Assembly: GCA_902806325.1 (NCBI GenBank)
Contig: CADCWE010000201.1
Span: forward strand, 1,030 to 65,029
Length of the DNA stretch: 64,000 nucleotides
Direction: 5' to 3'
DNA from: an uncultured Thermomicrobiales bacterium
GTDB lineage: Bacteria > Chloroflexota > Chloroflexia > Thermomicrobiales > UBA6265
The notes under the pieces are model-generated. The model worked only from the letters and a program-made list of their open reading frames with translations. It made no database searches and was not told where the DNA came from. Position 1 is the first letter of the stretch, and every line of letters begins with the position of its first letter. A program made the position numbers and the translations under genes. This document shows, one piece after another, positions 19,745 to 57,646 of this stretch.

Positions 19745-21643
19745 CTACCCCGCCTCGGCGAGCTGCGCCCGGTCCTCGGGGACGGGGATCGCGCCGGAGG
19801 CGACCAACCGCTCCATCTCGGCGACGGTGCGCTCGATCTCGGCCAGGGCGGCCTCGACCGGGTCCGGGGTGGTCAGATCGACGCCGGCCCGCTTCAGCAG
19901 GGCCAAGGGGTCATCGGAGCCGCCGGCGGCGAGGAGATCGAGGAACCGCGCGACGGCCGGTTCCCCGTCGTCGCGGATCGATCGCGCCAGCGCGATCGCC
20001 GCCGACAGCCCGGTCGCGTACTGGTAGACGTAGAACGCGTCGTAGAAGTGGGGGATCCAGGCCCATCGGATCCGCGACAGGTTGTCCTCGGTCAGGCCGG
20101 GCAGGAACGCCGCCTGGATCTGGCCGAAGAGTTCGTCCAGGCGGTCGGCGGTCAGCGGTCGGCCCGCCTCGACGTCGGCGTGGGTTTGGCGTTCGAAATC
20201 GGCCAGCGCCGCTTGGAGGACGAGCGTCGAAACCGCGCCATCGACAAAGCGGGTCAACAGGGAGAAGCGCTGGCTGGGGTCGTCGCGGCCGATGGTGTCG
20301 AGCAAGTGCCAGGTCAAGAACACCTCGTTCAACGTCGAGGCGATCTCGGCCAGCACGGTCGGGTAGTACCAATCGTGGAAGGGTTGGGCGGTCATCGCGA
20401 AATGGCTGTGCATTGCGTGGCCCGCCTCGTGGGCGAGGGTGAAGACATCGGTCAGGGTCCCGTTCCAGTTCATCAGGATCACCGGGGACGCGCCGTACGC
20501 CCCCCAGGAGTACGCGCCGGAGGCCTTGCCCTTGGTCTCGTGGACGTCGACCCAGCGGCTGGCAAACCCGGTCCGGAGATCGGCCACGTAGCGCTCGCCC
20601 AAGGGCGACAACCCCGCCAGCACCAGCTCGACCGCTTCCCGATACCCGTAGTGGCGGATCGGTTCCGGCAGCAGCGGCGCCCGCCGATCGTAGACCGCCA
20701 GTTCGTCGACGCCGAGCAAGCGGCGCCGCAGGTCGTGGTAACGCCCGACGACGGGTCCCGCGGCGCGGACGGCGTCGAGCAGCGTGTCGTAGACCGATTC
20801 CGGGATGTTGGCCGGGAACAGGGCGGCGGCGCGGGCGCCGCCGAAGCCGCGCGCCCGGGCCAGGACCACGTCCTTGCGCACCGAGCCGCCGTGGAGCGCG
20901 GCCAGGCTGTGGCGATGCTTCCGGTAGGCGCCCATCGCCGCCGCGTGGGCGCGGCGACGCAAGTCCCGGTTCCGCGACTCCATCATCCGGTCGAGGCGGC
21001 CGTGGGTCAGCACGACCTCGGTCCCGTCCTCGTCGGCAATCCGGCCAAAATCCACGTCGGCGTTGTCGAAGGCGCCGAAGGCGTCGCCGGGGATGCGGGC
21101 GACCTCGGCGATCTGGGCCAAGATCGCTTCGATCTCGGCCGAGCGGACGTGCGGCCGATGGCGGGCGATATCGGACACGACGTAGCGGTAACGGGTCAGC
21201 GCCGGATCGTCCAGGAACGCGGTCAGCCGGTCTTCCGGAACGGCGAGGATGCCGGGGCGGAGAAACGCCAGCGCCTCCTCGGCGTCGGTCTCGATCTTGG
21301 CGGCGCGCTCGTAGCGGGCGTTGCCGTCGTCGGCGGTGGTGTCCTCGTCGCGGCGGAGCGCGGCGTAGGTCAGGAGCCGGGCGGCGGTCTCGCGCAGCGC
21401 CATCGCCTCGTCGAGCGCCGCCGCCAGCGCCGCCGCCGACGCGCCGAGCGTCTCCCGGTGCCCGGTGGCGGCGGCGACCAGGGCCGGGATCCGCGCCGCG
21501 TCCGCGTCCCAGGCCGCCGCGTCGGCGTACATCGGCGTCAAGTCCCAGGTGTCCTCGACCGCCACCCGGTCGCGGGTCAGTTCCTCGCCCGCGCCGGGTT
21601 CCGGCGCCGTGTCCGGTTCGGGTTGCACCGCCATGGTTCGCAC
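19745..21643 (-). CDS. pepF: Oligoendopeptidase F (M3B), copy 2 (tandem paralogue)
   Basis: 632 aa. Same HEAGHAMHS motif and colinear with copy 1. Only 17 bp separate it from copy 1. Confidence 0.92.
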   Translation of the reverse strand: MRTMAVQPEPDTAPEPGAGEELTRDRVAVEDTWDLTPMYADAAAWDADAARIPALVAAATGHRETLGASAAALAAALDEAMALRETAARLLTYAALRRDEDTTADDGNARYERAAKIETDAEEALAFLRPGILAVPEDRLTAFLDDPALTRYRYVVSDIARHRPHVRSAEIEAILAQIAEVARIPGDAFGAFDNADVDFGRIADEDGTEVVLTHGRLDRMMESRNRDLRRRAHAAAMGAYRKHRHSLAALHGGSVRKDVVLARARGFGGARAAALFPANIPESVYDTLLDAVRAAGPVVGRYHDLRRRLLGVDELAVYDRRAPLLPEPIRHYGYREAVELVLAGLSPLGERYVADLRTGFASRWVDVHETKGKASGAYSWGAYGASPVILMNWNGTLTDVFTLAHEAGHAMHSHFAMTAQPFHDWYYPTVLAEIASTLNEVFLTWHLLDTIGRDDPSQRFSLLTRFVDGAVSTLVLQAALADFERQTHADVEAGRPLTADRLDELFGQIQAAFLPGLTEDNLSRIRWAWIPHFYDAFYVYQYATGLSAAIALARSIRDDGEPAVARFLDLLAAGGSDDPLALLKRAGVDLTTPDPVEAALAEIERTVAEMERLVASGAIPVPEDRAQLAEAG

Positions 21644-41759: not shown

Positions 41760-41818
41760 GGGGCGCCCGTGGCCCTCCGTAGGGGCGCTGCTTGCTGCGC
41801 CCGTGGCCCGAAGGCCAC
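41757..41818. repeat. GGGGCGC-hairpin repeat, family 2 (tandem copy plus GTGGCC hairpin)
   Basis: gtagggggcgcccgtggcc, then gtaGGGGCGCtgcttgctGCGCCCgtggcc, then GTGGCC-cgaa-GGCCAC. The cluster begins at the stop codon of the permease gene. Confidence 0.6.
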
Positions 41819-41966
41819 AACGGGGGAACCAACGAACGACGACGGTCGGTCTCCGGCCGACGGGGGCGCGGCAAGCGGCGCCCCGACGGCGTGGAGATCC
41901 GGCACATGCTCCGTGGCTGCCCACGAGCCGCGACCAATGGCCGGAACGACGAGAAGTGGAGCGTTG

Positions 41967-43109
41967 ATGGATCGGAACCCGTTGGAACGCAAGGTCCGCG
42001 GCGTCCTCTACGGGGCCGCGGTCGGGGACGCGCTGGGGTCGCCGGCGGAGGGCAAGGAGCCGCCGGACATCCGCGCCCGGTACGGCGAGATCACCGATTT
42101 CGTCGAACCGTGGAACGGGCCGTCGGCGATCGGAAAGGGGGACGGCCGGTACTCCGACGATACCCACATGACGACCATCCTGAGCCGGATCTACCTCGAC
42201 GCGGACGACCACCTGGACGTGTTCCGCTTCGCCGCCGCCGTCGTCCCCCGGATCGCCGACCAGCCGATTTGGGTTCCCGAACACGGGCGGGAGATGCCGC
42301 TGATCGAGCGGCTCTTCTACCCCGAAAAATGGCTGCTGATGCGGCTGCGGTTGGCGAACGCCGACCCGCGCTTGGGCGGGATCGGCAACATGGTCAACTG
42401 CGGCGCCGCGATGTACGCCGCCCCGGTCGGGATCGTCAACGCCGGCGATCCCGGCGCGGCCTACCGCGAGGCGATCGAGATCTTCGCCGCCCACCAGTGG
42501 AGCTACGGGCTCGAAGCGGCCGGCGTCGTGGCGGCCTGCGTGGCCGGCGCGTTCACGCCGGGCACCACGGTCGACGCGATCGTCGCCACCGCGCTCGGAC
42601 TGTCCCAGGAGGGCACCCGGTCGGCAATCGCGGCGGTGGTCGAGCGCGCGCGGCGGTTCGACGACTGGCGCGCCGCGCTCGGGCCGCTGCGCGACGCGGT
42701 TCGCCCGTTCGACGGCGCCGCCTAGCAGATCCGCAACCGGGGCAACGGCACCGACGACTGGACGCCCAGCCGGGTCCGCGCGATCGAAGAGTTGCCGATC
42801 GCCCTCGGGTTGCTGATCGTCACCGGCGGCGACTACGAGGCCAGCGTCCTGGCCGCCGCCAACTACGGCCGCGACAACGACTCCATCGCCGGCATGGCGG
42901 GCGCGATCGCCGGCGCCCTCCACGGCGACGGGGCGATCCGTCCCGCCTGGATCGAGCGGATCAACGCCGCCAACCGGGTCGACTTCGACCCGCTGGCGCG
43001 CGACCTCGCGGCGCTGGCGGACCGGCTGCACCGGCGCCGGTTGACCGCGGACGAAGCACGCCACCGCCTGTTCACCGAACTTGGTTCTCAATCAACACGG
43101 CCGAGCTAG
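41967..43109 (+). pseudogene. ADP-ribosylglycohydrolase-family protein interrupted by a single in-frame TAG (42723-42725)
   Basis: N-terminal part: GAAVGDALGSPAEG and YSDDTHMT. After the TAG, in the same frame: ELPIALGLLIVTGGDYEASVLAAANYGRDNDSIAGMAGAIAGALHG (the C-terminal metal-site motif). Track ORFs 41769-42725 and 42792-43109 are in one frame (66 nt apart). Confidence 0.7.
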
Positions 43110-43145: not shown

Positions 43146-45245
43146 TTGGCCCTGCCCAACGACTACGCGGAGCGCGTCTACGCCGGGGTGCTCGGCAAGC
43201 TGATCGGCGTCTACCTCGGCCGCCCGGTCGAAAGCTGGAAATACGAGCGGATCACGACCGAGATCGGCGAGATCGACCGCTACATGCCCGAGATCAAGGG
43301 CGGCATCCTGGTGGTCACCGACGACGACATCTCGGGCACCTTCACCTTTCTCCGCGCCTTGCCGGACAACGGCAACCGGCGCGACATCTCGGCCCAGGAC
43401 ATCGGTCACACCTGGCTCAACTACATCGTCGAAGGGCGGACGATCCTCTGGTGGGGCGGGCTGGGCAATTCGACGGAGCACACGGCCTACCTCCGTCTCA
43501 AGGACGGGATCCCCGCCCCCCGCAGCGGCTCGATTGCGCTCAACAGCAAAACCGTCGCCGAGCAGATCGGAGCCCAGATCTTCGTCGACGGATGGGCGAT
43601 GGTCGCGCCGGGCGATCCGGAGCTGGCCGCCGACCTGGCCCGCCGGGCGGGGTCGGTCAGCCACGACGGGGAGGCCATCTACGGCGCCCAGGTCGTCGCC
43701 GCGATGGAGGCCCAGGCCTTCGTCGAATCCGACACCAATCGGCTGATCGACACCGGGGTCTCGTTCATCCCGCCGGACTCGACGATCGCCCGCCTGATCC
43801 ACGACGTCCGGGAGTGGCACGCGGCGGAGCGGGACTGGCGGGCGACGCGGGACCTGATCGCCGCCAACTACGGCTACGACAAGTACCGCGGCAACTGCCA
43901 CATGGTCCCGAACCACGCCCTGATCATCCACGCCCTGCTCCACGGCGAGGACGACTTTCGGCGGTCGCTGACGATCGTCAACACCTGCGGCTGGGACACC
44001 GACTGCAACTCCGGCAACCTCGGTTGCCTGCTCGGGATCAAGAACGGACTGGCGGCGATCGACGCCTCGCCCTACGACTGGCGGGGTCCCGTCGCCGACC
44101 GGCTCTACCTCGCCACGGCCGACGGCGGGCGGGCGATCACCGACGCCGCGACCGAATCCTTCCACGTCGTCAACATCGGCCGCGCGCTGGCCGGGGAGGC
44201 GCCGCTCCACCCCAAGCAGGGCGCCCGGTTCCACTTCGAACTCCCCGGCTCCGTTCAGGGGTTCGGAGCCGAGGGCGACGGCGTCTCGGTCGAGAACGTG
44301 GTCGGGCACAGCGCGCGTGGCCAGCGTAGCCTGGCCGTCCGCGCCCGCGCCGGCGGCACGGCGCGGATTGCCACCCCGACGTTCATCCCACCCGAGGCGA
44401 TCGCGATGCGGGGCTACGTTCTCCTCGCCTCGCCGACGCTCTACGCCGGGCAAACGGTGCGGGCCGGCGTCGCCGCCGACGAATCCAACCGGCAAACCAC
44501 CACCTGCCGCCTCTTCCTCCGCGCCTACACGGGCGACGATACGTTGACCCTCGTCCAGGGGTCCGAGGCCGTTCTGGAGCCGGGCACGACCCAGGAGCTG
44601 GTCTGGCGGATCCCCGAGACGGACGGCCAACCGATCGCCCAGGTCGGCATCGAGGCGCGCCACGGCGACGGCGGATCCGGCGACGGCACCGTCTACCTCG
44701 ACTACCTCGACTGGGACGGCGCCCCGGAGGCGACGCTCGGGCGACCGGCGGCCCGCGGCACGATGTGGCGCCGCGCCTGGATGGACGGCGTCGACGATTT
44801 TCGCGACCGGTGGCCGGAACCGTACCGGATCGTCCAGAACCACGGCACCGGCCTGATCAGCCAGGGCACCGCGGACTGGACCGACTACCGGGCGGAGGCC
44901 GATGTCAAGGTCTACCTCGCCCGCTCGGGCGGCCTCGCGGTGCGCACCGGCGGGATGCGCCGCTACTACGCCCTGACGCTCGATGACGACGGGCAGGCGC
45001 GGCTGATCAAGATGCGCGACGGCCAGACGATCCTGGCCGAAGCGGCGTTCCCCTGGGACTTCGACCGCTCCTACGCCCTCGCCTTGGAGGCCGACGGCGC
45101 CCGGCTTCGCGGCTGGATCGACGGCGCGCTGCTGTTCGACGTCGTCGACGAAACCGACCCGTTGACCGGCGGCGGCGTCGGGTTGGTCTGCACCGAGGGG
45201 TGCCTGGGCAGCGAGGCGGTCCGGGTGCGGCCGGCGGAGGCGTGA
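43146..45245 (+). CDS. ADP-ribosylglycohydrolase-fold domain fused to C-terminal beta-sandwich (LamG/concanavalin-like) domains
   Basis: GAGGAGGAG SD plus TTG at 43146. ARH motifs: VVTDDDISGT and NTCGWDTDCNSGNLGCLLG. The first motif is atypical (GKLIGVYLGRPVE). The C-terminal roughly 350 aa are beta-rich, ending WTDYRAEADV..YYALTLDDDGQARL..GGVGLV. Confidence 0.85.
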   Translation: MALPNDYAERVYAGVLGKLIGVYLGRPVESWKYERITTEIGEIDRYMPEIKGGILVVTDDDISGTFTFLRALPDNGNRRDISAQDIGHTWLNYIVEGRTILWWGGLGNSTEHTAYLRLKDGIPAPRSGSIALNSKTVAEQIGAQIFVDGWAMVAPGDPELAADLARRAGSVSHDGEAIYGAQVVAAMEAQAFVESDTNRLIDTGVSFIPPDSTIARLIHDVREWHAAERDWRATRDLIAANYGYDKYRGNCHMVPNHALIIHALLHGEDDFRRSLTIVNTCGWDTDCNSGNLGCLLGIKNGLAAIDASPYDWRGPVADRLYLATADGGRAITDAATESFHVVNIGRALAGEAPLHPKQGARFHFELPGSVQGFGAEGDGVSVENVVGHSARGQRSLAVRARAGGTARIATPTFIPPEAIAMRGYVLLASPTLYAGQTVRAGVAADESNRQTTTCRLFLRAYTGDDTLTLVQGSEAVLEPGTTQELVWRIPETDGQPIAQVGIEARHGDGGSGDGTVYLDYLDWDGAPEATLGRPAARGTMWRRAWMDGVDDFRDRWPEPYRIVQNHGTGLISQGTADWTDYRAEADVKVYLARSGGLAVRTGGMRRYYALTLDDDGQARLIKMRDGQTILAEAAFPWDFDRSYALALEADGARLRGWIDGALLFDVVDETDPLTGGGVGLVCTEGCLGSEAVRVRPAEA

Positions 45246-47830: not shown

Positions 47831-48730
47831 GTGTCCCTCTGCCTGTATCGCGACCGCGACCGCGACCGCGACCCCGCGGACGCCGCCCCGGACGCCGCCC
47901 CGCGCCTCGGCCTGATCGCGGATAGCCGCGTCCACGACGTGGCCGCGGTCGGTGGACCGGCCACGATGGCCGAGGCGCTGGCGATGCCGCTAGGCGACCT
48001 GCGCTCCCGCCTGGGCGCCGTCCTGGACGCGGCCGGGGACACGGTGGCCCTGGCCGACGTCCGGTTGCTGGCGCCGGTGGATCGTCAAGAGGTCTGGGCG
48101 GCGGGCGTCACCTATCTCCGCTCCCGCGACGCCCGGATGGAAGAATCGACCGAGAAGAGCGTCTACGACCGGGTCTACGACGCCAAGCGGCCGGAGCTGT
48201 TCCTGAAAGCCACCCCGCACCGCGTGTCCGGACCCGGCGAGCCGGTCGCGATCCGCGCCGATTCGACCTGGGACGTGCCGGAACCGGAGCTGGCGCTGGT
48301 CCTCAACGCCGACGGGGAGACTATCGGCTACACCGTCGGCAACGACGTGTCGTCGCGCTCGATCGAGGGCGAGAACCCGCTCTACCTGCCCCAGGCCAAG
48401 GTTTACGACGCCTGCGCCGCGCTCGGCCCGACCGTCGCCCTGGCTTGGGATCTGTCCGACGTTTCCGACCTCGCGATCCGTCTTTCCATCCGCCGCGCCG
48501 GCGCGATCCACTTCGAAGGCGAGTCCTCAACGTCCCAGATCCACCGCCCGTTCGCGGACCTGGTCGGCTACCTGCGCCGCCACAACCGGTTCCCGCACGG
48601 CGTCGTCCTGATGACCGGCACCGGCATCATCCCGCCGCCGGAGTTCACCCTCGAAGACGGCGACGAGGTCCGGATCGCGATCGACGGCATCGGGGAGCTG
48701 GTCAACCCGGTGGTGCGGCCGACCGGATAG
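47831..48730 (+). CDS. Fumarylacetoacetate hydrolase (FAH)-family enzyme, KdaD-like (2-keto-3-deoxy-pentonate dehydratase type)
   Basis: GTG at 47831. EVWAAGVTYLRSRD..VYDRVYDAKRPELFLKATPHRVSGPGEPVAIRADSTWDVPEPELALVLN..GNDVSSRSIEGENPLYLPQAKVY resembles archaeal KdaD as I recall it. The last 33 codons are duplicated at 49698-49805. Confidence 0.85.
   Translation: MSLCLYRDRDRDRDPADAAPDAAPRLGLIADSRVHDVAAVGGPATMAEALAMPLGDLRSRLGAVLDAAGDTVALADVRLLAPVDRQEVWAAGVTYLRSRDARMEESTEKSVYDRVYDAKRPELFLKATPHRVSGPGEPVAIRADSTWDVPEPELALVLNADGETIGYTVGNDVSSRSIEGENPLYLPQAKVYDACAALGPTVALAWDLSDVSDLAIRLSIRRAGAIHFEGESSTSQIHRPFADLVGYLRRHNRFPHGVVLMTGTGIIPPPEFTLEDGDEVRIAIDGIGELVNPVVRPTG
48623..48721 (+). repeat. Direct repeat, left copy (functional 3' end of the FAH-family CDS)
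   Basis: 99 nt, 97/99 identical to 49698-49796. Confidence 0.95.
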
Positions 48731-48742
48731 GGATCGACGGCT

Positions 48743-49195
48743 CTAGCTCGCGTTGGTGGTGGGAAGCGTGATTTCTTCCCGGACCACAAGACCGAGCGCC
48801 CGAATCACCTCGCCGACGCGTTGGAGACTCGCCGCGGCGTAGTCCGTCGCCTCGTAGCGCTGGATCTGTTGTTCCTGGATCCCGAGCCGCTCGGCAAGCT
48901 CGCGTTGGGTCAACCCGACCGCGATTCGCGCCGCGATCAGGGCGTGGGGCAATCCCTCGAACGATTCGACCGCGAGCGTCGCCGGCCCCCCACGTTTCAG
49001 CGCCTCGTACTCCATGATCTCCCGCCGCAGATCGTGGATTTGGCTTTCGAGGGCATCGCGGTCGATCTGCTGGAACAGCTGGTCGTCCGAGTCGTCGGGA
49101 AACGTGCGCTGGCGGACTTCCGCCAAAGCATCCACGAAGCCGCCAAGTTGGCGCTTCGTGATCTGGTACTGTCGCTCATTCTTGATCATGGCCAC
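48743..49195 (-). CDS. XRE-family HTH protein with an N-terminal helical extension (antitoxin-like)
   Basis: 150 aa. C-terminal HTH IAARIAVGLTQRELAERLGIQEQQIQRYEATDY. N-terminus IKNERQYQITKRQL... is helical. The start overlaps the upstream gene by 10 nt. Confidence 0.8.
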   Translation of the reverse strand: MAMIKNERQYQITKRQLGGFVDALAEVRQRTFPDDSDDQLFQQIDRDALESQIHDLRREIMEYEALKRGGPATLAVESFEGLPHALIAARIAVGLTQRELAERLGIQEQQIQRYEATDYAAASLQRVGEVIRALGLVVREEITLPTTNAS

Positions 49196-49626
49196 GTCCT
49201 CAGGTCAAGGGCAACGATGCCTTTAGGTTCGCCCGTCTGCTTGTCGCTCTGGAAAAAACTGAGGAACGGTGATCCTGCGCTGTCGGCCACCGATTGCGCG
49301 CGAAACAGTTCGCCATGGTACTTTGCCTTCTGGGTCGCCCGTCCCGGATCGAACGTGCGTAGCGCGGGGTCGAGTCGTCTCGGATCGACGCCGGTGCTGT
49401 CCCAGCAGGCGTCAAAATCTCCCGGAATCGGCTTGGTAGTGACGAAGCTACCATCGACGTAGACGGTTCGGCACCCGGCCGCCTTGAGATCGGACAACGC
49501 CAGCCGGAGTCCGGCGAGCAACCGCCGCCGATGCTCGTTCGCCCCAAACCGGGTCACGAACTCGTCCCACGTTGCCCAATGGATTCCGGGTTGGAGGTTG
49601 CCGCCGGGATCGGCGTTCGGAATCAT
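49186..49626 (-). CDS. Small nucleotidyltransferase-like protein (uncharacterised family; putative toxin/effector)
   Basis: 146 aa. TVYVDGSFVTTKPIPGDFDACW fits the pol-beta NTase pattern G-S-x9-D-x-D. The promoter lies immediately upstream. Confidence 0.65.
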   Translation of the reverse strand: MIPNADPGGNLQPGIHWATWDEFVTRFGANEHRRRLLAGLRLALSDLKAAGCRTVYVDGSFVTTKPIPGDFDACWDSTGVDPRRLDPALRTFDPGRATQKAKYHGELFRAQSVADSAGSPFLSFFQSDKQTGEPKGIVALDLRTWP

Positions 49627-49632
49627 GACCCA

Positions 49633-49661
49633 ACTGTATCGTTGTGTATAGCGAGTGTCAA
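49633..49661 (-). promoter_or_regulatory. Sigma-70-type promoter of the cassette, probably giving a leaderless mRNA
   Basis: On the minus strand: TTGACA (49661-49656), a 17-nt spacer, then TACAGT (49638-49633). Only 6 nt separate the -10 element from the ATG at 49626, and there is no SD. Confidence 0.55.
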
Positions 49662-49697
49662 CGCCGGCAACCGGCAGTCGCCACCGCTCTCCCGCAC

Positions 49698-49805
49698 GGC
49701 ATCATCCCGCCGCCGGAGTTCACCCTCGAAGACGGCGACGAGGTCCGGATCGCGATCGACGGCATCGGGGAACTGGTCAATCCGGTGGTGCGGCCGGCGG
49801 CGTGA
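49698..49805 (+). repeat. Direct repeat, right copy: orphaned 3' fragment of the FAH-family CDS (..GIIPPPEFTLEDGDEVRIAIDGIGELVNPVVRPAA-stop)
   Basis: The 99-nt repeat spans 49698-49796, followed by gcg gcg tga. The stop at 49803-49805 abuts the stop (49806-49808) of the convergent gene. Confidence 0.9.
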
Positions 49806-50021
49806 TCAGGCCATCTTGAGGGACAACGCCGGGAGCGACGCGGTTTCGAGCGTCGTCAGATCCAGCTTCGCCGATGCCCGGTCGATGTCGATCCCGACCG
49901 CGTTGCCGTCCGCGTCGAAATCGACAACCAGCCCGTCGACGATCTCGCGCGCTTCTACCCCAGGGCGATCGACCAGGTCGATGTAGAGCGAATCGGTCTC
50001 GGGATAGTAGTGGAGTTTCAT
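49806..50021 (-). CDS. DUF2283-family small protein (antitoxin-like)
   Basis: ATG at 50021. MKLHYYPETDSLYIDLVDRPGVEAREIVDGLVVDFDADGNAVGIDIDRAS is the DUF2283 pattern. The rest of track ORF 49806-50399 is run-on. Confidence 0.75.
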   Translation of the reverse strand: MKLHYYPETDSLYIDLVDRPGVEAREIVDGLVVDFDADGNAVGIDIDRASAKLDLTTLETASLPALSLKMA

Positions 50022-50427
50022 CGAAATTGGTTCCTCACCGTTGCGGCGGAAGGACGAAGTCGCGATCGGGGAACGCATGGTGAACCGTTTCGCCATCTTC
50101 CAAGGTCCCGACCCGGAGGAGATGGCCGGGAAACTCCAGAACGGTTCCCCAAAACCCAGGCGCACCACCCCCTGCGGAGGGACGGGCGCTGCCGAAACAC
50201 CTGGTCCTCGAAGGACCGCGCCGTGTTGGTTTCGCCACCTCCATGGCTCATCTCCGATGTGAGCAAAGCGCGCGATTCCCTCGGCGGCCGTTCGAATATA
50301 GCGGTCCACGGGGTGTCGCCCGAAGCAACGTCCTTCGCCCTGGCCGCAACCTTGCGGAATCCGCGTGGGCGCGGTTGCCCGCGCGGGCGCCGTGGCCACC
50401 GGATCGGCAATGCGAAGGGGGAGACCA

Positions 50428-53375: not shown

Positions 53376-54791
53376 TCAGACGATCCGCTCCCGTAGCCAG
53401 CCCGCGACCTCGGCCAGCGGCACCCGCTCCTGGTTCGTCGTGTCGCGATCACGGATCGTGACCGCCCGATCCTGGAGGGTGTCGAAGTCGACCGTGACGC
53501 AGAACGGCGTACCGATCTCGTCCTGGCGGCGGTAGCGCTTGCCGATGTTGGCCGTCTCGTCGTAGTCGATCAGGGCGCCGGTCTCGGCCTCAAGGGTGTC
53601 GAACAGGGTCTTGGCCACCTCGGTCAACTCCGGCTTCTTCGCCAGCGGCAGCACCGCCGCCTTGTACGGGGCGAGCCGGGGGTGGAGGCGCAAGACGACC
53701 CTGGTGTCCGGTTTGCCGTTGACATCGACCGTCTCTTCTTCGTCGTAGGCGTCGAGCAGGACCACCAGGAAGGTGCGGTCCACCCCAAAGGTCGGCTCGA
53801 TAACGTGGGGCAGGAAGCGGGCGCCGGTCGGTTGGTCGAAGTAGGTCAAATCCTCGCCGGAGTGCTCCTGGTGCTGCTTGAGGTCGAAGTCCGTCCGGTT
53901 GGCCAGGCCGTAGAGTTCCTTCCAGCCCATCGGGCCGGGGAACAGGTACTCGAAGTCCACCGTTCGGCTGGAATAGTGGGACAGCTCTTCCTTGGCGTGC
54001 TCGCGGACGCGGACGTGTTCCTCCCGCACCCCGATCCGGCCGAACCAGGCCCGCATGTCGGCCAGCCAGCGCTCGAAGGCGTCGGCGCCGTCGTCCGGGT
54101 GGACGAAGTATTCGATCTCCATCTGCTCGAACTCGATGTCGCGGAAGATGAAGTTGCCGGGGGTGATCTCGTTGCGGAACGCCTTGCCGATCTGGGCGAT
54201 GCCGAAGGGCAGCTTGACCCGCGACGTGGCGAGGACGTTCTTAAACTGGACGAACATCGCCTGCGCCGTCTCCGGCCGCAGGTAGACCTGGACCCCGGTC
54301 TCCTCGACCGGGCCGATCGTGGTCCGGAACATCATGTTGAACTGGCGGGCATCGGTCAGGGTCCGGTTGCCGCACTTGGGGCAGGGCAGGTTGGCCTGGC
54401 TCAGGATCGCCGACATCTCGTCGGGCGTTTTGCCGGCGGCGTCCTGGCCCAATCGCTCCTCGATCAGGTGATCGGCCCGGAAGCGGCTCTTGCAGGTCTT
54501 GCAATCCACGAGCGGGTCGTTGAAGTTGACGACGTGGCCGGAGGCTTCCCAGACCCGGGGGTGCATCAGGATCCCGCCATCCAAGCCGACCATGTCCCGC
54601 CGTCGCTGGACGAAGGTGCGCCACCAGAGCTGCTTGAGGTTGTTTTTGAGCTCGGCCCCCAGCGGCCCGTAGTCCCAGGTGTTGGCGAGGCCGCCGTAGA
54701 TGTCGGATCCGGGGTAGACGAAGCCGCGCCGCTTGCAGAGGGCGACGATTTTTTCCATCGTCGCGGCGCGGGTCGTCGTGGCGTCTGCCAT
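53376..54791 (-). CDS. glyQS: Glycine--tRNA ligase (dimeric alpha2 type)
   Basis: 471 aa. Motifs: [23 protein letters not shown], class II motifs ([18 protein letters not shown]), and a C-terminal anticodon-binding domain. Confidence 0.95.
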
Positions 54792-54921
54792 CGGGTGCTG
54801 CTCCAGTTCTCGGCGCGCGAGGTCGGTATCTCGGTCAAGTGTAGCGGACCGGAGACTGCCCGCCGATCCGTCCCAAACCGGTAGACTGGTTGCCGAGCAC
54901 GGCCGCGAGGAGGAGGATGCG

Positions 54922-55470
54922 ATGGCGGTGTCGGAGCGGACCTACGAGGCGGTGGCGCTAGAAGACCCGCACGGGTTGTGGGAACTCTGGGACGGGCGGT
55001 TGCGGGAGAAACCGGGGATGAGCTTCGAACACGGCGACGCGATGGGGGAGTTGGGATACTTCCTCCGGCGCCAACTCGACGGCGGTCGCTACCGCGTTCA
55101 TTACAACCACGCTCGGGCGCGCCGCTCAGACACGACCGTTTTCATCCCGGATGTGGCGGTGATCCCCATCGAGTACGTGGATCCGTTGCGGGGTCGCCCG
55201 GGCACGCTGGAGATCTACGACGGGCCGCTCCCGTTTGTCGCAGAGATCTGGTCCCCGTCCACCGGCGACTACGACGTGGACGCCAAACTCCCCGAGTACC
55301 AGCGCAGGGGCGACCTCGAGATCTGGCGGCTGCACGCCTACGACCGCACGGTCACGGCCTGGCGACGCCAACCGGACGGTCGTTACGAGGAGGCGTTCTA
55401 CCGCGGCGGGGTCGTGCCGGTCCTCTCATTGCCCGGCGTGACGATCGACCTCGACGAATTGTTCGTCTGA
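54922..55470 (+). CDS. Uma2-family (DUF820) restriction-endonuclease-fold protein
   Basis: GAGGAGGAGGA SD plus ATG at 54922. Motifs: [41 protein letters not shown]. Confidence 0.85.
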
Positions 55471-55503: not shown

Positions 55504-56451
55504 TCACGCCTCCGCCGCCTCCCCGAACCCCGCGTCCAGATCCGGGGCGAACCGTGGTCCGTCGTCGCCCGCCAGTTGGCGGTAGACCTGGGTGGTGGAG
55601 ATGCTGACGTGGCCGAGCATCTGCTGAACGTCGCGCAACTCGGTGCCGTCGCGGAGGGCGTGGGTGGCGAAGGAATGGCGCAGGGTGTGGGGGGTGATGT
55701 CGCCGATCCCGGCCTGGTGGGCGTAGGATTTGAGGATCAGCCAAAAGCCCTGACGGGTCAGGCGGTTGCCGCGGTGGTTGAGGAACAGGGCCGCGTCGTC
55801 GCCCAGGGTCAGCATCGGCCGGGCCTCGTCCAAGTAGCGACGCAGGGCGCGGACCGCGCTCTCGCGCAGCGGCACCGTCCGCTCGCGGCCCGCCTTCCCG
55901 GCGCAGCGAACTCCCCCGGCCTCCAGGTTCAGGTCTTCGATGTCGAGGGCGACCAGCTCGCTGACGCGCATCCCGCTGGCGTAGAGGGTCTCCAGCATCG
56001 CCCGGTCGCGCAGGGCCTCTGGCCGCGCGGCGGCGCCGTTGGCGACGGCGGCCGTGTCGGGTTGCTCCAGGAGGCGGGCGACCTCGACCGGGGTGATCGC
56101 CCGGGGGACGTACTTGTCGACCTTGGGCGAACTCATCCCGGCGGCCGGGTCGCTGCCCATCACGCCCTCGACGGAGAGGAAATGGCAGAACGACTTGATC
56201 GCCGCCGTCTTCCGGGCCACAGTCGACGAGGCGTAGTCGCGCTCGCGGAGGTGGAGCAGATAGCCGGTCAAGTGGCCGTCGGTCAGGTCGCACCAACCGG
56301 CGACCGTGGCCCCGCCGTCCGGATCGAACGGATGATCTTCCAGGTACCCCACGAATTGGTGGAGGTCGTTGCGGTAGGCGGCAATGGTGTTGAGCGAGAA
56401 CCCCCGCTCAGCCTCCAGCACCCGGAGGAATTGCTGAACGCTGTCGCGCAT
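55504..56451 (-). CDS. xerD: Tyrosine recombinase, XerD-like
   Basis: Motifs: FLRVLEAERGFSLNTIAAYRNDL, RDRAMLETLYASGMRVSELV, LTRQGFWLILKSYA, HTLRHSFATHAL, LGHVSISTTQVY (R-H-R-Y set). I prefer the ATG at 56451 to the one at 56472. Confidence 0.88.
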   Translation of the reverse strand: MRDSVQQFLRVLEAERGFSLNTIAAYRNDLHQFVGYLEDHPFDPDGGATVAGWCDLTDGHLTGYLLHLRERDYASSTVARKTAAIKSFCHFLSVEGVMGSDPAAGMSSPKVDKYVPRAITPVEVARLLEQPDTAAVANGAAARPEALRDRAMLETLYASGMRVSELVALDIEDLNLEAGGVRCAGKAGRERTVPLRESAVRALRRYLDEARPMLTLGDDAALFLNHRGNRLTRQGFWLILKSYAHQAGIGDITPHTLRHSFATHALRDGTELRDVQQMLGHVSISTTQVYRQLAGDDGPRFAPDLDAGFGEAAEA

Positions 56452-56461
56452 GGTGTTCCCT

Positions 56462-57646
56462 TCACGAGCCATCGGCCGTCGGCGATCGGCGATCAGCGAT
56501 CGGCTGCCCCGTGCTTGCCGCTGACGGCCGGTCGCCGAGAGCCTCGGCGACCGGCACGAACGGCAAGCCGAACGCGTCCGCCACCGCCTGGTACGTCACG
56601 GCGCCGTCGAAGACGTTGACGCCCTTGGCCAGCGCGGGGTCACGGGCAATGGCGCCGGCCAGGCCGTGGTTGGCCAGTTCCAAGCCGTACGGCAGGGTGA
56701 CGTTGGAGAGGGCCAGGGTGCTGGTGCGGGGCACCGCGCCGGGCATGTTGGTGACGCAGTAGTGGATCACGCCGTCGACCAGGAAGGTCGGGTCGCTGTG
56801 GGAGGTTGGGCGGGCGGTCTCGATGCAGCCGCCCTGGTCGATCGCGACGTCGACGACGACCGAGCCGGGGCGCATCGCGCGGACCATCTCGGCCGTGACC
56901 AGTTTCGGCGCCTTGGCGCCGGCGATCAGGACGGCGCCGACGACCAGATCGGCCTCGGCGACGGCGGCGGCGATGTTTTGCGAGTTGGAGGCCAGGGTGT
57001 TGATCCGGCCGTGCAGCACCTGGTCCAGATAGCGCAGGCGCTCGACGGACAGGTCGAGGATCGTCACGTTGGCGCCCATCCCGAGCGCCATCTGGGCCGC
57101 GTTGGTGCCGACCACGCCGCCACCGACGACCGCGACGTTGGCGCCGGGCACCCCCGCCACGCCGCCAAGCAGCAGTCCGCGCCCGCCATGGGTCCGCTCC
57201 AGGTAGTGGGCGCCGATCTGGACCGCCATCCGGCCCGCGACCTCGCTCATCGGGGTCAGGAGCGGCAGAATCCGGTTGTCGAGTTGGACCGTTTCGTAGG
57301 CGACCGCCTGGACCCGGTTGCGCATCAGGGCGCGGGTCAGCGGTTCGTCGGCGGCCAGGTGGAGGTAGGTGAACAGCAACTGATCCGGCCGCAGGAGGTC
57401 GTACTCGGCGGCGACGGGTTCCTTGACCTTGACGATCATCTCGGCCTGGTCAAAGACCGACCGCGGGCCGTCCGCGATCGCGGCGCCCGCCGCCACGTAC
57501 TCGGCGTCGGAGAAGCCGCTGCCGCTCCCGGCGCCGCGCTCGACCAGGACCCGGTGTCCCCGCGCCACGTACTCGGCCACGCCGCCCGGGGTCGTCGAGA
57601 CGCGGTTCTCCCGGTCCTTGACCTCCCTCGGCACGCCCACGATCAT
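56462..57646 (-). CDS. ald: Alanine dehydrogenase
   Basis: Motifs: MIVGVPREVKDRENRVSTTPGG and the NAD fold VAVVGGGVVGTNAA. Colinear with Ald, plus a short C-terminal tail. Confidence 0.95.
   Translation of the reverse strand: MIVGVPREVKDRENRVSTTPGGVAEYVARGHRVLVERGAGSGSGFSDAEYVAAGAAIADGPRSVFDQAEMIVKVKEPVAAEYDLLRPDQLLFTYLHLAADEPLTRALMRNRVQAVAYETVQLDNRILPLLTPMSEVAGRMAVQIGAHYLERTHGGRGLLLGGVAGVPGANVAVVGGGVVGTNAAQMALGMGANVTILDLSVERLRYLDQVLHGRINTLASNSQNIAAAVAEADLVVGAVLIAGAKAPKLVTAEMVRAMRPGSVVVDVAIDQGGCIETARPTSHSDPTFLVDGVIHYCVTNMPGAVPRTSTLALSNVTLPYGLELANHGLAGAIARDPALAKGVNVFDGAVTYQAVADAFGLPFVPVAEALGDRPSAASTGQPIADRRSPTADGS

What the first reader, a model, noticed from the sequence alone, without database searches (positions are those of the whole stretch)
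48623..49805. Two-gene cassette inserted in the 3' end of the FAH-family gene, bracketed by 99-bp direct repeats
Positions 48623-48721 and 49698-49796 are the same 99 nt (97/99 identical). Both copies are the in-frame 3' end of the FAH-family CDS (..GIIPPPEFTLEDGDEVRIAIDGIGELVNPVVRP). The only two differences (48697 g vs 49772 a; 48706 c vs 49781 t) are synonymous third-position changes. The copies then diverge into different last codons: T-G-stop ending at 48730, versus A-A-stop at 49803-49805.

The distal copy ends exactly tail-to-tail against the stop of the convergent DUF2283-like gene (49806-49808). That looks like the ancestral gene end. The proximal copy now completes the intact ORF.

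The 976 bp in between carry their own promoter and two overlapping minus-strand genes. They also contain one of the most AT-rich patches I noticed (49627-49661).

This is the footprint expected when DNA integrates site-specifically into a gene 3' end and supplies a replacement end (an attL/attR-like duplication). However, no integrase, transposase or terminal inverted repeat lies inside. The element would therefore be a minimal island, either mobilised in trans or decayed.
Basis: partly seen in the sequence, partly recalled or inferred. Interest (0 to 1): 0.8.

Follow-up and report, generated by a model that had tools for sequence, protein, structure and literature searches.

The report
Toxin-antitoxin-like cassette flanked by duplicated gene end
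A small two-gene toxin-antitoxin-like cassette sits between two near-identical copies of the last 100 bases of a metabolic gene; this is most likely the scar of ordinary homologous recombination between two versions of the locus, not a new kind of mobile element.

Summary
Positions 48622-48721 and 49697-49796 are a 100-nt direct repeat, 98/100 identical. The proximal copy completes an intact FAH-family gene. The distal copy is an in-frame FAH 3' remnant whose stop abuts the DUF2283 stop.

The 975 bp in between carry a promoter-like site and an overlapping operon: DUF6932 (nucleotidyltransferase-like signature, PADLOC PDC-M63A-like) plus an XRE-type HTH protein. A second contig and a k=31 unitig that breaks exactly as a true repeat predicts rule out an assembly artefact.

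The site-specific attL/attR reading is not supported.
- The insert holds no recombinase. The only one in the window is a XerD-like gene 5.7 kb away.
- Related DUF6932-HTH modules sit in fixed chromosomal positions without flanking repeats.
- The nearest relative (FAH 88% identical) already has the HTH gene 12 nt after the FAH stop.
- The two repeat copies differ at 2 sites, where about 24 are expected if the duplication were as old as that split.

Most likely a fragment carrying the cassette plus the FAH end recombined with a cassette-free allele through host homologous recombination. That duplicates the homologous segment and leaves one illegitimate joint at 49696|49697. No empty site was found, so which DNA was incoming and the mechanism are inferred. 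Interest is modest.

The parts
47831..48730 (+). Intact FAH-family CDS (299 aa as called in public assemblies). Relatives are named 2-dehydro-3-deoxy-D-arabinonate dehydratase by JGI. It ends ...VVRPTG*.
   Evidence: PF01557, E=2.9e-21. Identical protein P0121 and 8000 homologues, the closest from Thermomicrobiales/Chloroflexota.
48622..48721 (+). Proximal copy of the 100-nt direct repeat. It forms the last 33 full codons of the functional FAH gene.
48722..48742 (+). FAH last two codons plus stop (ACC GGA TAG, 48722-48730), then a 12-nt spacer to the convergent HTH stop. Homology with the distal copy stops here.
   Evidence: L003 has the same layout, a 12-nt spacer between the two stops.
48743..49189 (-). 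XRE-family HTH protein (148 aa). The N-terminal ~80 aa have no domain assignment and the HTH is C-terminal. Presumed antitoxin/repressor.
   Evidence: PF01381 HTH_3, E=6e-9. Weak matches to HipB/MqsA-type antitoxin models. Called as 148 aa in L001/L002. 1668 homologues.
49186..49626 (-). DUF6932 protein (146 aa), first gene of the operon, overlapping the HTH start by 4 nt. Presumed nucleotidyltransferase-like toxin/effector.
   Evidence: PF22014, E=1e-37. PADLOC PDC-M63A, E=9e-14. Invariant G59-S60...D70-x-D72. AF2 model pLDDT 93. The leading Foldseek PDB hits are nucleotidyltransferases, but none is significant (E >= 0.5).
49633..49661 (-). Sigma-70-like promoter site (TTGACA-17-TACAGT, 10 of 12) in the AT-rich patch. 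The -10 element ends 7 nt before the DUF6932 ATG, which suggests a leaderless transcript.
   Evidence: 1 site found, 0.2 expected. GC 45.7%.
49690..49700 (.). The single non-homologous joint, 49696|49697, between the cassette's promoter-side end and the FAH remnant. Only a short imperfect microhomology is present (CCCGCA-CGG vs CCGGCACCGG).
   Evidence: Apparent longer homology to the left is at background level.
49697..49805 (+). Distal copy of the repeat (49697-49796) plus its own tail GCG GCG TGA. It is a displaced FAH 3' fragment (...VVRPAA*) without the rest of the gene.
   Evidence: (the fragment hits the end of the PF01557 profile, positions 187-214).
49806..50021 (-). DUF2283 gene (71 aa), convergent with the FAH remnant and abutting it stop to stop (TGA|TCA).
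   Evidence: PF10049, E=2.6e-15. Gene table of L001. A 66%-identical DUF2283 lies ~1 kb downstream of the FAH orthologue in L009.

Best explanation
**What it is.** The locus is a recombination joint between two versions of the same chromosomal site.
- In one version the FAH gene is followed, 12 nt after its stop, by a convergent two-gene operon. The operon encodes DUF6932 (a small nucleotidyltransferase-like protein) and an XRE-type HTH protein. It is toxin-antitoxin-like and resembles the PADLOC candidate PDC-M63.
- In the other version the FAH gene ends ...RPAA* and abuts DUF2283 stop to stop.

**How it most likely arose.** A short piece of DNA from a cassette-bearing close relative carried the cassette plus the last ~100 nt of that relative's FAH gene. 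It was most simply a circularised fragment of ~1075 bp. It recombined with the resident FAH 3' end through the host's homologous recombination machinery, as a Campbell-type single crossover; a homology-facilitated illegitimate event gives the same product.

Such an event duplicates the homologous segment as direct repeats around the insert. It keeps FAH intact, because the incoming copy supplies the end. It pushes the resident end downstream as a remnant and leaves one illegitimate joint, at 49696|49697. No dedicated integrase is needed.

**Inferred consequences.** The repeats make the insertion reversible by RecA-type deletion, which would restore FAH><DUF2283. If the cassette is an addiction or defence module, it would select against that loss.

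**Shown:** the repeat, the gene content, the intact and remnant ends, the older FAH-cassette junction in a relative, and the young age of the duplication.

**Inferred:** the existence of the cassette-free allele, which DNA was incoming, the recombination pathway, and the toxin-antitoxin function.
For: 1. The structure A-insert-A, with 100 nt at 98% identity and one sharp non-homologous joint, is the product described experimentally for circularised fragments entering by RecA-dependent single crossover. Those events duplicate 109-950 bp of the homologous segment. HFIR joints typically show 3-10 bp microhomology (PMC3240628).
2. A cassette-bearing haplotype exists independently. L003, from a different JGI sample, has FAH at 88% aa / 89% nt identity and the homologous HTH gene (80% aa) convergent 12 nt after the FAH stop.
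3. The duplication is much younger than that adjacency. All 8 window-vs-L003 differences in the 99 nt are synonymous (dS ~0.39). A neutral distal copy as old as the split would differ at ~24 sites; 2 are observed (Poisson P ~8e-9). With L003 as outgroup there is one derived change per copy.
4. Both FAH ends are bona fide C-termini of normal length: RP + 2 residues, as in orthologues ending SA, TS or AG. The remnant's stop abuts the DUF2283 stop. FAH and DUF2283 are also neighbours in a ~70% relative.
5. No recombinase lies in the insert. The window is core chromosome (TrpRS/TyrRS-type synthetase, DprA, ScpA/B, L25, GlyRS), and its one recombinase is XerD-like.
6. Homologous modules elsewhere are stably placed with no flanking repeats, including one context conserved across diverged lineages. 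Only 2 IMG/VR contigs carry a relative.
7. Displacement of an old 3' end downstream of an incoming module by homology-anchored recombination is an established model for T6SS effector-immunity, Rhs and CDI arrays (PMC5361080).
Against: - No cassette-free (empty-site) allele was found. The protein database holds no FAH closer than 88%. GTDB Thermomicrobiales orthologues are at most 75% identical and not syntenic. A degenerate-pattern scan of JGI metagenomes returned only L003 and an unrelated FAH paralogue.
- L003 ends inside the HTH gene, so it is unknown whether that lineage also carries a distal remnant.
- Gene conversion between the copies could mimic a young duplication.
- The microhomology at the joint is short and imperfect.
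- The same topology is produced by a site-specific recombinase acting in trans.
- Toxicity and neutralisation by the cassette proteins are untested. The one published test of a PDC-M63AB system found no defence phenotype (PMC12409345).
Confidence: 0.5

Rival explanations
1. Site-specific integration. The 975-bp cassette plus a ~100-nt FAH-like attP is a minimal integrative element. It targets the FAH 3' end and supplies a replacement end. It is either mobilised in trans by a recombinase encoded elsewhere or is the decayed stump of a larger island. The repeats are attL and attR.
For: - Direct repeats bracket compositionally atypical DNA, and the target gene is kept intact by a replacement end. 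This is exactly the anatomy of e14 / phage 21 in icd with the icdC remnant (PMC13626634).
- The same site is occupied by a related cassette in the nearest relative, L003, as expected for a site-specific element.
- A XerD-like tyrosine recombinase lies 5.7 kb away.
Against: - No recombinase or terminal inverted repeats lie in the insert.
- The nearby recombinase scores as XerD/XerC-type, passing NCBIfam's generic tyrosine-recombinase model but not the XerD or XerC equivalog cut-offs, and sits among core genes.
- The insert has no second copy anywhere: the nearest DUF6932 is 71% identical and the nearest full-length HTH protein 62%.
- Related modules are fixed in place without repeats and are almost absent from viral contigs.
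- No empty site was observed.
Confidence: 0.2
2. Reverse polarity. The cassette next to FAH is the resident state, as in L003. The incoming DNA was the right-hand segment, consisting of the FAH 3' fragment plus DUF2283 and beyond. It came from a relative in which FAH abuts DUF2283. It was anchored by homology further downstream and joined illegitimately at 49696|49697, replacing whatever lay upstream of the cassette promoter.
For: - The FAH-HTH junction is shared with the nearest relative.
- DUF2283 and the ~350 nt upstream of it are also low in GC (0.59-0.65), so the right side looks as foreign as the cassette.
- HFIR normally gives an insertion coupled to a deletion (PMC3240628).
Against: - FAH and DUF2283 are also near each other in L009, a ~70% relative. 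This suggests that linkage is old on the chromosome rather than imported.
- No data exist on what lies upstream of the cassette in L003-type genomes.
Confidence: 0.15
3. Old duplication kept alike by gene conversion. The A-insert-A structure dates from the original arrival of the cassette, before the window/L003 split. The two copies stay 98% identical through concerted evolution.
For: - Repeats of 100 nt lying 1 kb apart are a substrate for conversion.
- Both copy-specific changes lie in the last quarter of the repeat (positions 76 and 85 of 100), compatible with a conversion tract covering the left part.
Against: - It requires long-term retention of a non-coding 100-nt remnant with zero indels, and of deletion-prone direct repeats.
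- About 24 differences are expected without conversion and 2 are seen.
- There is no independent evidence for conversion.
Confidence: 0.1
4. Assembly artefact or chimera of two co-occurring strains.
For: The source is a metagenome, and two haplotypes of the locus are postulated anyway.
Against: - Two contigs differing by 22 SNPs share the structure.
- If the contig name k137_541701 reflects a final k of 137, the contig's k-mers exceed the repeat length.
- The Logan unitig contains the cassette-to-distal-copy joint and the proximal-copy SNPs linked to the cassette. It breaks exactly where a real repeat forces a k=31 branch.
Confidence: 0.02

Closest known systems
Campbell-type single-crossover integration of circularised fragments, and homology-facilitated illegitimate recombination (Amarir-Bouhram et al. 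2011, PMC3240628; de Vries & Wackernagel 2002 and Prudhomme et al. 2002, as cited there)
   Same: - The insert is flanked by a direct duplication of the homologous segment. Experimentally 109-950 bp were duplicated; here it is 100 nt.
- There is one illegitimate joint with short microhomology.
- No element-encoded recombinase is involved.
- The insert is ~1 kb.
   Different: - This is a natural event in an uncultured Thermomicrobiales genome, inferred from sequence only.
- The donor fragment, the recipient allele and RecA dependence have not been observed.
e14 / phage 21 integration into the 3' end of icd, leaving the icdC remnant (Hill et al. 1989, via PMC13626634)
   Same: - The incoming DNA supplies a near-identical replacement 3' end that keeps the target gene functional.
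- The native 3' end persists as a pseudogene fragment at the far side.
- The differences between the copies are mostly synonymous.
   Different: - e14 is a 15-kb prophage with its own integrase and SOS-induced excision.
- Here the insert is 975 bp with no recombinase, and related cassettes show no sign of site-specific mobility.
Displacement arrays of polymorphic toxin loci: T6SS effector-immunity modules, Rhs and CDI orphan 3' ends (Kirchberger et al. 2017, PMC5361080)
   Same: A module arrives anchored by homology in the conserved upstream gene. The previous 3' end is pushed downstream and retained as an orphan fragment.
   Different: - There the new 3' end encodes a different toxin domain. 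Here the old and new ends encode the same 33 residues and differ only in the last two.
- FAH is a metabolic enzyme, not a toxin.
Type II toxin-antitoxin operons with the toxin gene first and an XRE-HTH antitoxin second (HigBA, MqsRA style), and nucleotidyltransferase-fold TA partners (MntA-HepT, MenT/AbiEii)
   Same: - Two small genes overlap by 4 nt, and the second encodes an HTH_3 DNA-binding protein.
- The operon has its own promoter-like site and atypical GC.
- The first protein carries the G-S...D-x-D nucleotidyltransferase signature.
- The leading fold hits include MntA and HI0073, though none is significant.
   Different: - There is no significant sequence or structure match to any characterised toxin.
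- DUF6932 has no literature.
- Which partner, if either, is toxic is unknown.
PADLOC phage-defence candidate PDC-M63 (two genes, A and B)
   Same: DUF6932 matches the PDC-M63A model at E=9e-14. The system is a two-gene module.
   Different: - The HTH partner did not match a PDC-M63B model.
- The candidate is unvalidated. The one native-host deletion test gave no defence phenotype (PMC12409345).

Membership tests
Site-specific integrative element (attL/attR, e14-in-icd type) | Direct repeats (att core) bracketing the inserted DNA | tested here: met
   100 nt, 98% identical, at 48622-48721 and 49697-49796.
Site-specific integrative element (attL/attR, e14-in-icd type) | Element-encoded (or demonstrably cognate) integrase or recombinase next to an att site | tested here: not met
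   The insert encodes only DUF6932 and an HTH protein. The sole recombinase in 64 kb is a XerD-like gene 5.7 kb outside.
Site-specific integrative element (attL/attR, e14-in-icd type) | Occupied versus empty target sites among close relatives | tested here: inconclusive
   No empty site was found. The only close relative (L003) is occupied at the proximal junction and its contig ends inside the HTH gene.
Site-specific integrative element (attL/attR, e14-in-icd type) | The same element recurring in other genomes or sites with the same ends | tested here: not met
   The nearest DUF6932 is 71% identical and the nearest full-length HTH protein 62%. Five other module contexts lack bracketing repeats.
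Homologous (Campbell-type single-crossover / HFIR) insertion product | The duplicated segment is the region of homology between incoming and resident DNA, in direct orientation around the insert | tested here: met
   The repeat is the FAH 3' end. Both copies read as the same 33 codons.
Homologous (Campbell-type single-crossover / HFIR) insertion product | A source haplotype in which the insert already adjoins the homologous segment | tested here: met
   L003 has the FAH stop, a 12-nt spacer, then the convergent homologous HTH gene.
Homologous (Campbell-type single-crossover / HFIR) insertion product | One illegitimate joint with short microhomology | tested here: inconclusive
   The boundary at 49696|49697 is sharp, with imperfect CCCGCA-CGG / CCGGCACCGG similarity. 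Longer similarity is at background level.
Homologous (Campbell-type single-crossover / HFIR) insertion product | RecA dependence, and a recipient allele lacking the insert | not testable with these tools
   This needs genetics, or read-level or population data. No cassette-free allele exists in the searched collections.
Type II toxin-antitoxin system | Two small co-oriented, overlapping genes, one encoding a DNA-binding antitoxin | tested here: met
   4-nt overlap; HTH_3 at E=6e-9. The architecture is conserved in all sampled homologous loci.
Type II toxin-antitoxin system | A partner belonging to a recognised toxin family or fold | tested here: inconclusive
   Only the nucleotidyltransferase signature G59-S60...D70-x-D72 and non-significant fold hits led by nucleotidyltransferases. 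There is no NCBIfam or PDB sequence match.
Type II toxin-antitoxin system | Toxicity neutralised by the cognate partner | not testable with these tools
   Requires an expression experiment.
PADLOC candidate defence system PDC-M63 | Matches to both component models (A and B) | tested here: not met
   The A component matches at E=9e-14. The HTH protein hits only generic HTH models (RmrA, capH) and not PDC-M63B.
Integron cassette or Xer-mobilised (pdif/IMEX) module | attC-type imperfect inverted repeats, or 28-bp XerC/D sites, at the module borders | tested here: not met
   The borders are a 100-nt direct repeat of coding sequence. The inverted-repeat scan shows no paired sites at the two borders. 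A taxon-specific dif consensus was not available, so a cryptic Xer site inside the repeat is not strictly excluded.

The most novel reading that the evidence does not exclude
The cassette is a recombinase-free homing module. It carries ~100 nt of a conserved host gene end as a built-in homology arm. It cycles in and out of that gene end as a ~1.1-kb circle using only host RecA. Its toxin-antitoxin-like genes punish loss. That would be a class of minimal mobile element defined by target-gene mimicry rather than by an integrase.
Probability: 0.1. Interest if true: 0.6.

Novelty: new member of a known kind. Interest (0 to 1): 0.3.

Why it matters
- It is a clean natural example of how a small accessory module can be placed in a core chromosome region without any integrase. 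The module is toxin-antitoxin-like or defence-candidate in type. Homology with a neighbouring gene end does the work, and the event leaves a duplicated gene end that looks like attL/attR.
- Island and att-site predictors, and human readers, would call this a site-specific element. The comparison with the nearest relative shows why that inference needs an empty site or a recombinase.
- It flags a displaced FAH 3' pseudogene fragment that annotation should not call as a gene.
- It gives a defined context for the uncharacterised DUF6932-XRE pair, which is widespread (more than 1000 homologues), has no literature, and shows a nucleotidyltransferase signature.

Tried and rejected
1. **Longer homology left of the distal copy.** CAACCGG...TCCCGCACGG resembles FAH 48583-48600 and would imply a longer, indel-ridden remnant. 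Local alignment scores 10.5. That score is reached by 65 of 562 background chunks of the window and by 19 of 500 shuffles, so it is chance.
2. **Empty site.** FAH orthologues in GTDB genomes are at most 75% identical and not syntenic. A degenerate codon pattern for IAIDGIGELVNPVV in JGI metagenomes returned only L003 and an unrelated FAH-family gene, L085. No closer FAH, DUF6932 or HTH exists in the 5.8-billion-protein set.
3. **General bracketing repeats around DUF6932-HTH modules.** None were found in 26 loci checked by self-BLAST, representing four of the five other contexts sampled. The later loci of the Fer4 / 5'-3' exonuclease context show the same conserved neighbourhood.
4. **Phage carriage.** Only 2 IMG/VR contigs have a relative.
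5. **A DUF4258 toxin partner upstream of DUF2283.** No Pfam or PADLOC hit appeared in any of the three frames tried.
6. **Structured RNA or tRNA target nearby.** There are no Rfam hits in 44-54 kb and no tRNA in the window.
8. **The window's own 66.7-kb contig** could not be retrieved from the contig index, so its sample of origin is unknown.
9. **An in-cis tandem duplication model** was rejected. The sequence after the distal copy (GCGGCGTGATCAGG) does not match the sequence after the proximal copy (ACCGGATAGGGATC).


Full report
**1. The observation**

The repeat is real. The repeat finder reports 48622-48721 and 49697-49796 as a 100-nt direct repeat at 98% identity with 1075-nt spacing. A 51-nt probe from it occurs exactly twice in the window, against zero expected. 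It is the only near-perfect short-range repeat in the 64 kb.

Both copies translate to GIIPPPEFTLEDGDEVRIAIDGIGELVNPVVRP. The two differences (48697 G / 49772 A and 48706 C / 49781 T) are synonymous third positions.

The proximal copy is the end of an intact FAH-family CDS, 47831-48730 (PF01557), and runs on as ACC GGA TAG. The distal copy runs on as GCG GCG TGA (to 49805), followed immediately by TCA, the stop of the minus-strand DUF2283 gene at 49806-50021.

**2. Not an artefact**

- A second ENA contig (L001, ERZ1300029 k137_541701, 30.6 kb) is collinear with the window over 11,739 nt. It has 22 SNPs, none between 48159 and 51772, and the same structure.
- Its name is read here as a final assembly k of 137; if so, its k-mers exceed the repeat length.
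- A Logan unitig from ERR3885239 (L002) equals window 48667-49726. It runs exactly 30 nt into the distal copy. It also starts exactly 30 nt before the first proximal-specific SNP. That is where a k=31 de Bruijn graph must branch if the repeat and its two copy-specific SNPs are real.

**3. What lies between the copies**

The 975 nt from 48722 to 49696 carry a two-gene minus-strand operon.
- DUF6932: 49186-49626, 146 aa, PF22014 at E=1e-37.
- An XRE-family HTH protein: 48743-49189, 148 aa, PF01381 at E=6e-9. Its start overlaps the DUF6932 stop by 4 nt.

A sigma-70-like site, TTGACA-17-TACAGT (10 of 12; 1 found against 0.2 expected), lies at 49661-49633. It ends 7 nt before the DUF6932 ATG, which suggests a leaderless transcript. 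It sits in a 35-nt patch of 45.7% GC, in the lowest 0.2% of the window.

The cassette is compositionally atypical. Its GC is 0.63 and its GC3 0.72-0.81, against 0.72 and 0.90-0.93 for neighbouring genes. DUF2283 is atypical too.

*DUF6932.*
- It has more than 1000 homologues and no literature.
- It has no NCBIfam model hit and no solved homologue by sequence.
- It matches the PADLOC candidate PDC-M63A at E=9e-14.
- An alignment of 60 homologues shows invariant G59-S60 and D70-x-D72. From my own knowledge of the family, this is the Pol-beta-type nucleotidyltransferase signature.
- A confident AF2 model (pLDDT 93) gives Foldseek PDB hits led by nucleotidyltransferases (AadA, HI0073, MntA, ANT(4'), CdnE). 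All are non-significant, with E >= 0.5.

*The HTH protein* weakly resembles HipB/MqsA-type antitoxin models.

The pair therefore looks like a toxin-first type II TA or defence-candidate module. No activity has been shown, and the single published test of a PDC-M63AB system found no defence phenotype (PMC12409345).

**4. Organism and neighbourhood**

FAH homologues place the contig in Thermomicrobiales (Chloroflexota).

The window is core chromosome. It holds a class I W/Y-type aminoacyl-tRNA synthetase, DprA, ScpA/ScpB, ribosomal L25, GlyRS and ABC transporters.

There is no tRNA gene and no Rfam family near the locus.

The only recombinase is a 322-aa XerD-like tyrosine recombinase at 55504-56472. 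It scores 297.6 bits against TIGR02225 and passes the NF001399 cut-off. It lies 5.7 kb beyond the distal copy.

**5. Relatives**

*The nearest relative.* The only close relative in any collection is L003 (JGI 3300012679, 1458 bp).
- Its FAH is 88% identical in protein and 89% in DNA.
- Its last 33 residues are identical to the window's, and it ends SA*.
- 12 nt after its stop lies the convergent stop of an HTH gene 80% identical to the window's. The contig ends inside that gene.

The FAH-cassette junction is therefore shared by lineages about 11% apart in DNA.

*Age of the duplication.* Over the 100 nt the two window copies differ from each other at 2 sites, and each differs from L003 at 8 sites, all synonymous. 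With L003 as outgroup, one change is derived in each copy. With dS ~0.39, a neutral distal copy as old as the split should differ from the proximal copy at ~24 sites. Two are observed (Poisson P ~8e-9). Unless gene conversion intervenes, the duplication is roughly ten times younger than the FAH-cassette adjacency.

*More distant orthologues.* Thermomicrobiales FAH orthologues at 62-75% identity have neither the cassette nor conserved flanks. One (L009) has a 66%-identical DUF2283 about 1 kb downstream of FAH, with an MBL-fold gene between them.

*Empty site.* None could be found.

**6. Is the cassette itself mobile?**

The five other contexts sampled say no. Identical or related DUF6932-HTH pairs sit at fixed positions.
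- Between an MFS transporter and a short-chain dehydrogenase.
- Between a Fer4 protein and a 5'-3' exonuclease, a context conserved across several diverged lineages.
- Downstream of an SBP_bac_5 cluster.

None has bracketing direct repeats. Only two IMG/VR contigs carry a relative. The insert has no second copy: the nearest DUF6932 is 71% identical and the nearest full-length HTH protein is 62%.

**7. Mechanism**

The anatomy has three parts: a homologous segment duplicated in direct orientation around ~1 kb of DNA, one sharp non-homologous joint (49696|49697, with only imperfect CCCGCA-CGG / CCGGCACCGG similarity), and an intact target gene. That is the product obtained experimentally when a circularised fragment carrying a piece of chromosomal homology integrates by a RecA-dependent single crossover. 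In that study 109-950 bp were duplicated, and the authors note that HFIR joints carry 3-10 bp microhomology (PMC3240628).

Displacement of an old 3' end behind an incoming module by homology-anchored recombination is also the accepted model for T6SS, Rhs and CDI arrays (PMC5361080).

The two required haplotypes are each supported.
- FAH followed by the cassette is observed in L003.
- FAH abutting DUF2283 is implied by the remnant's normal-length C-terminus (RP + 2 residues, as in orthologues), by its stop-to-stop contact with DUF2283, and by the FAH-DUF2283 linkage in L009.

I therefore favour a recombinase-free joint between these two haplotypes, with the cassette as the incoming DNA (confidence 0.5).

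The rivals are as follows.
- **Reverse polarity (0.15).** The DUF2283 side came in, anchored downstream.
- **Site-specific element (0.2).** It has the e14/icd/icdC anatomy (PMC13626634), but it fails the recombinase and recurrence criteria.
- **Old duplication (0.1).** It would be homogenised by gene conversion.
- **Artefact (0.02).**

*Inferred consequences.* The repeats allow RecA-type deletion back to FAH><DUF2283. An addiction-type cassette would counter-select that loss.

**8. Things that led nowhere**

- Apparent extra homology left of the distal copy is at background level.
- No DUF4258 partner for DUF2283 was found.
- The window's own contig is not in the contig index.

**9. Verdict**

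The site-specific mobility claim is not supported.

The locus is a new instance of a known kind of event and of modest interest. The more interesting residual questions are what the widespread, unstudied DUF6932-XRE pair does, and whether such modules use a borrowed gene end as a homing arm.

Noticed in passing
window 55504-56472 (-), with 54733-55470 (+): A XerD-like tyrosine recombinase (322 aa; TIGR02225 297.6 bits; passes the NF001399 cut-off) lies next to a Uma2-family putative endonuclease and alanine dehydrogenase. It is the only recombinase in the window. It is probably the housekeeping dimer-resolution enzyme.
   Followed up: partly
window 47849-47904: The 5' end of the FAH gene carries a perfect hexanucleotide array (CGCGAC x 4.2, encoding RDRDRDRD) and a 12-nt repeat (x 2.5, PADAAPDAAP). 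Both are absent from the 88% orthologue P0122. This looks like a recent microsatellite expansion in the N-terminus.
   Followed up: partly
window 48670-48688 vs 48723-48741: The 19 nt right after the proximal repeat (CCGGATAGGGATCGACGGC: the FAH tail, stop and spacer) match an internal stretch of the repeat (CCGGATCGCGATCGACGGC) at 17 of 19 (family D8). L003 shows no such similarity. This is probably chance, but it sits exactly at the homology boundary.
   Followed up: no
window 49644-49805 (+): A 53-aa ORF with a GTG start reads through the FAH remnant in frame and scores weakly against the end of PF01557 (E=0.0014). It would probably be annotated as a small gene but is best treated as a pseudogene fragment.
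   Followed up: partly
window 50022-50364: About 340 nt upstream of DUF2283 have low GC (0.59-0.65) and no convincing gene. No Pfam or PADLOC hit appeared in the three frames tried, so the usual DUF4258-type partner of DUF2283 is missing or decayed.
   Followed up: partly
window 17886-19134 vs 19811-21059: Two tandem paralogous copies, 70-83% identical in DNA at 1925-nt spacing, of a peptidase M3 (oligoendopeptidase F-like) gene.
   Followed up: no
window 41769-43109: An ADP-ribosylglycohydrolase is split into two ORFs, 41769-42725 (profile positions 1-214) and 42792-43109 (positions 236-285). It lies just upstream of a 699-aa gene (43146-45245) whose counterpart in L001 is an ADP_ribosyl_GH protein. 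This is a possible frameshift or pseudogene.
   Followed up: no
window 49698-49716 vs 49794-49812: The start of the distal remnant and its end (spanning both convergent stops) form a 19-nt inverted repeat, 84% complementary and 77 nt apart (I24). It is GC-rich and may be chance. The two abutting stops form the palindrome TGATCA.
   Followed up: no
L092-L101 and L114-L118 (ENA metagenome contigs): A DUF6932-HTH module sits in one conserved position, between a Fer4 protein and a 5'-3' exonuclease, followed by MaoC and SGL genes. This holds across several lineages whose DUF6932 proteins differ in sequence, which suggests long-term vertical inheritance of this module type.
   Followed up: partly
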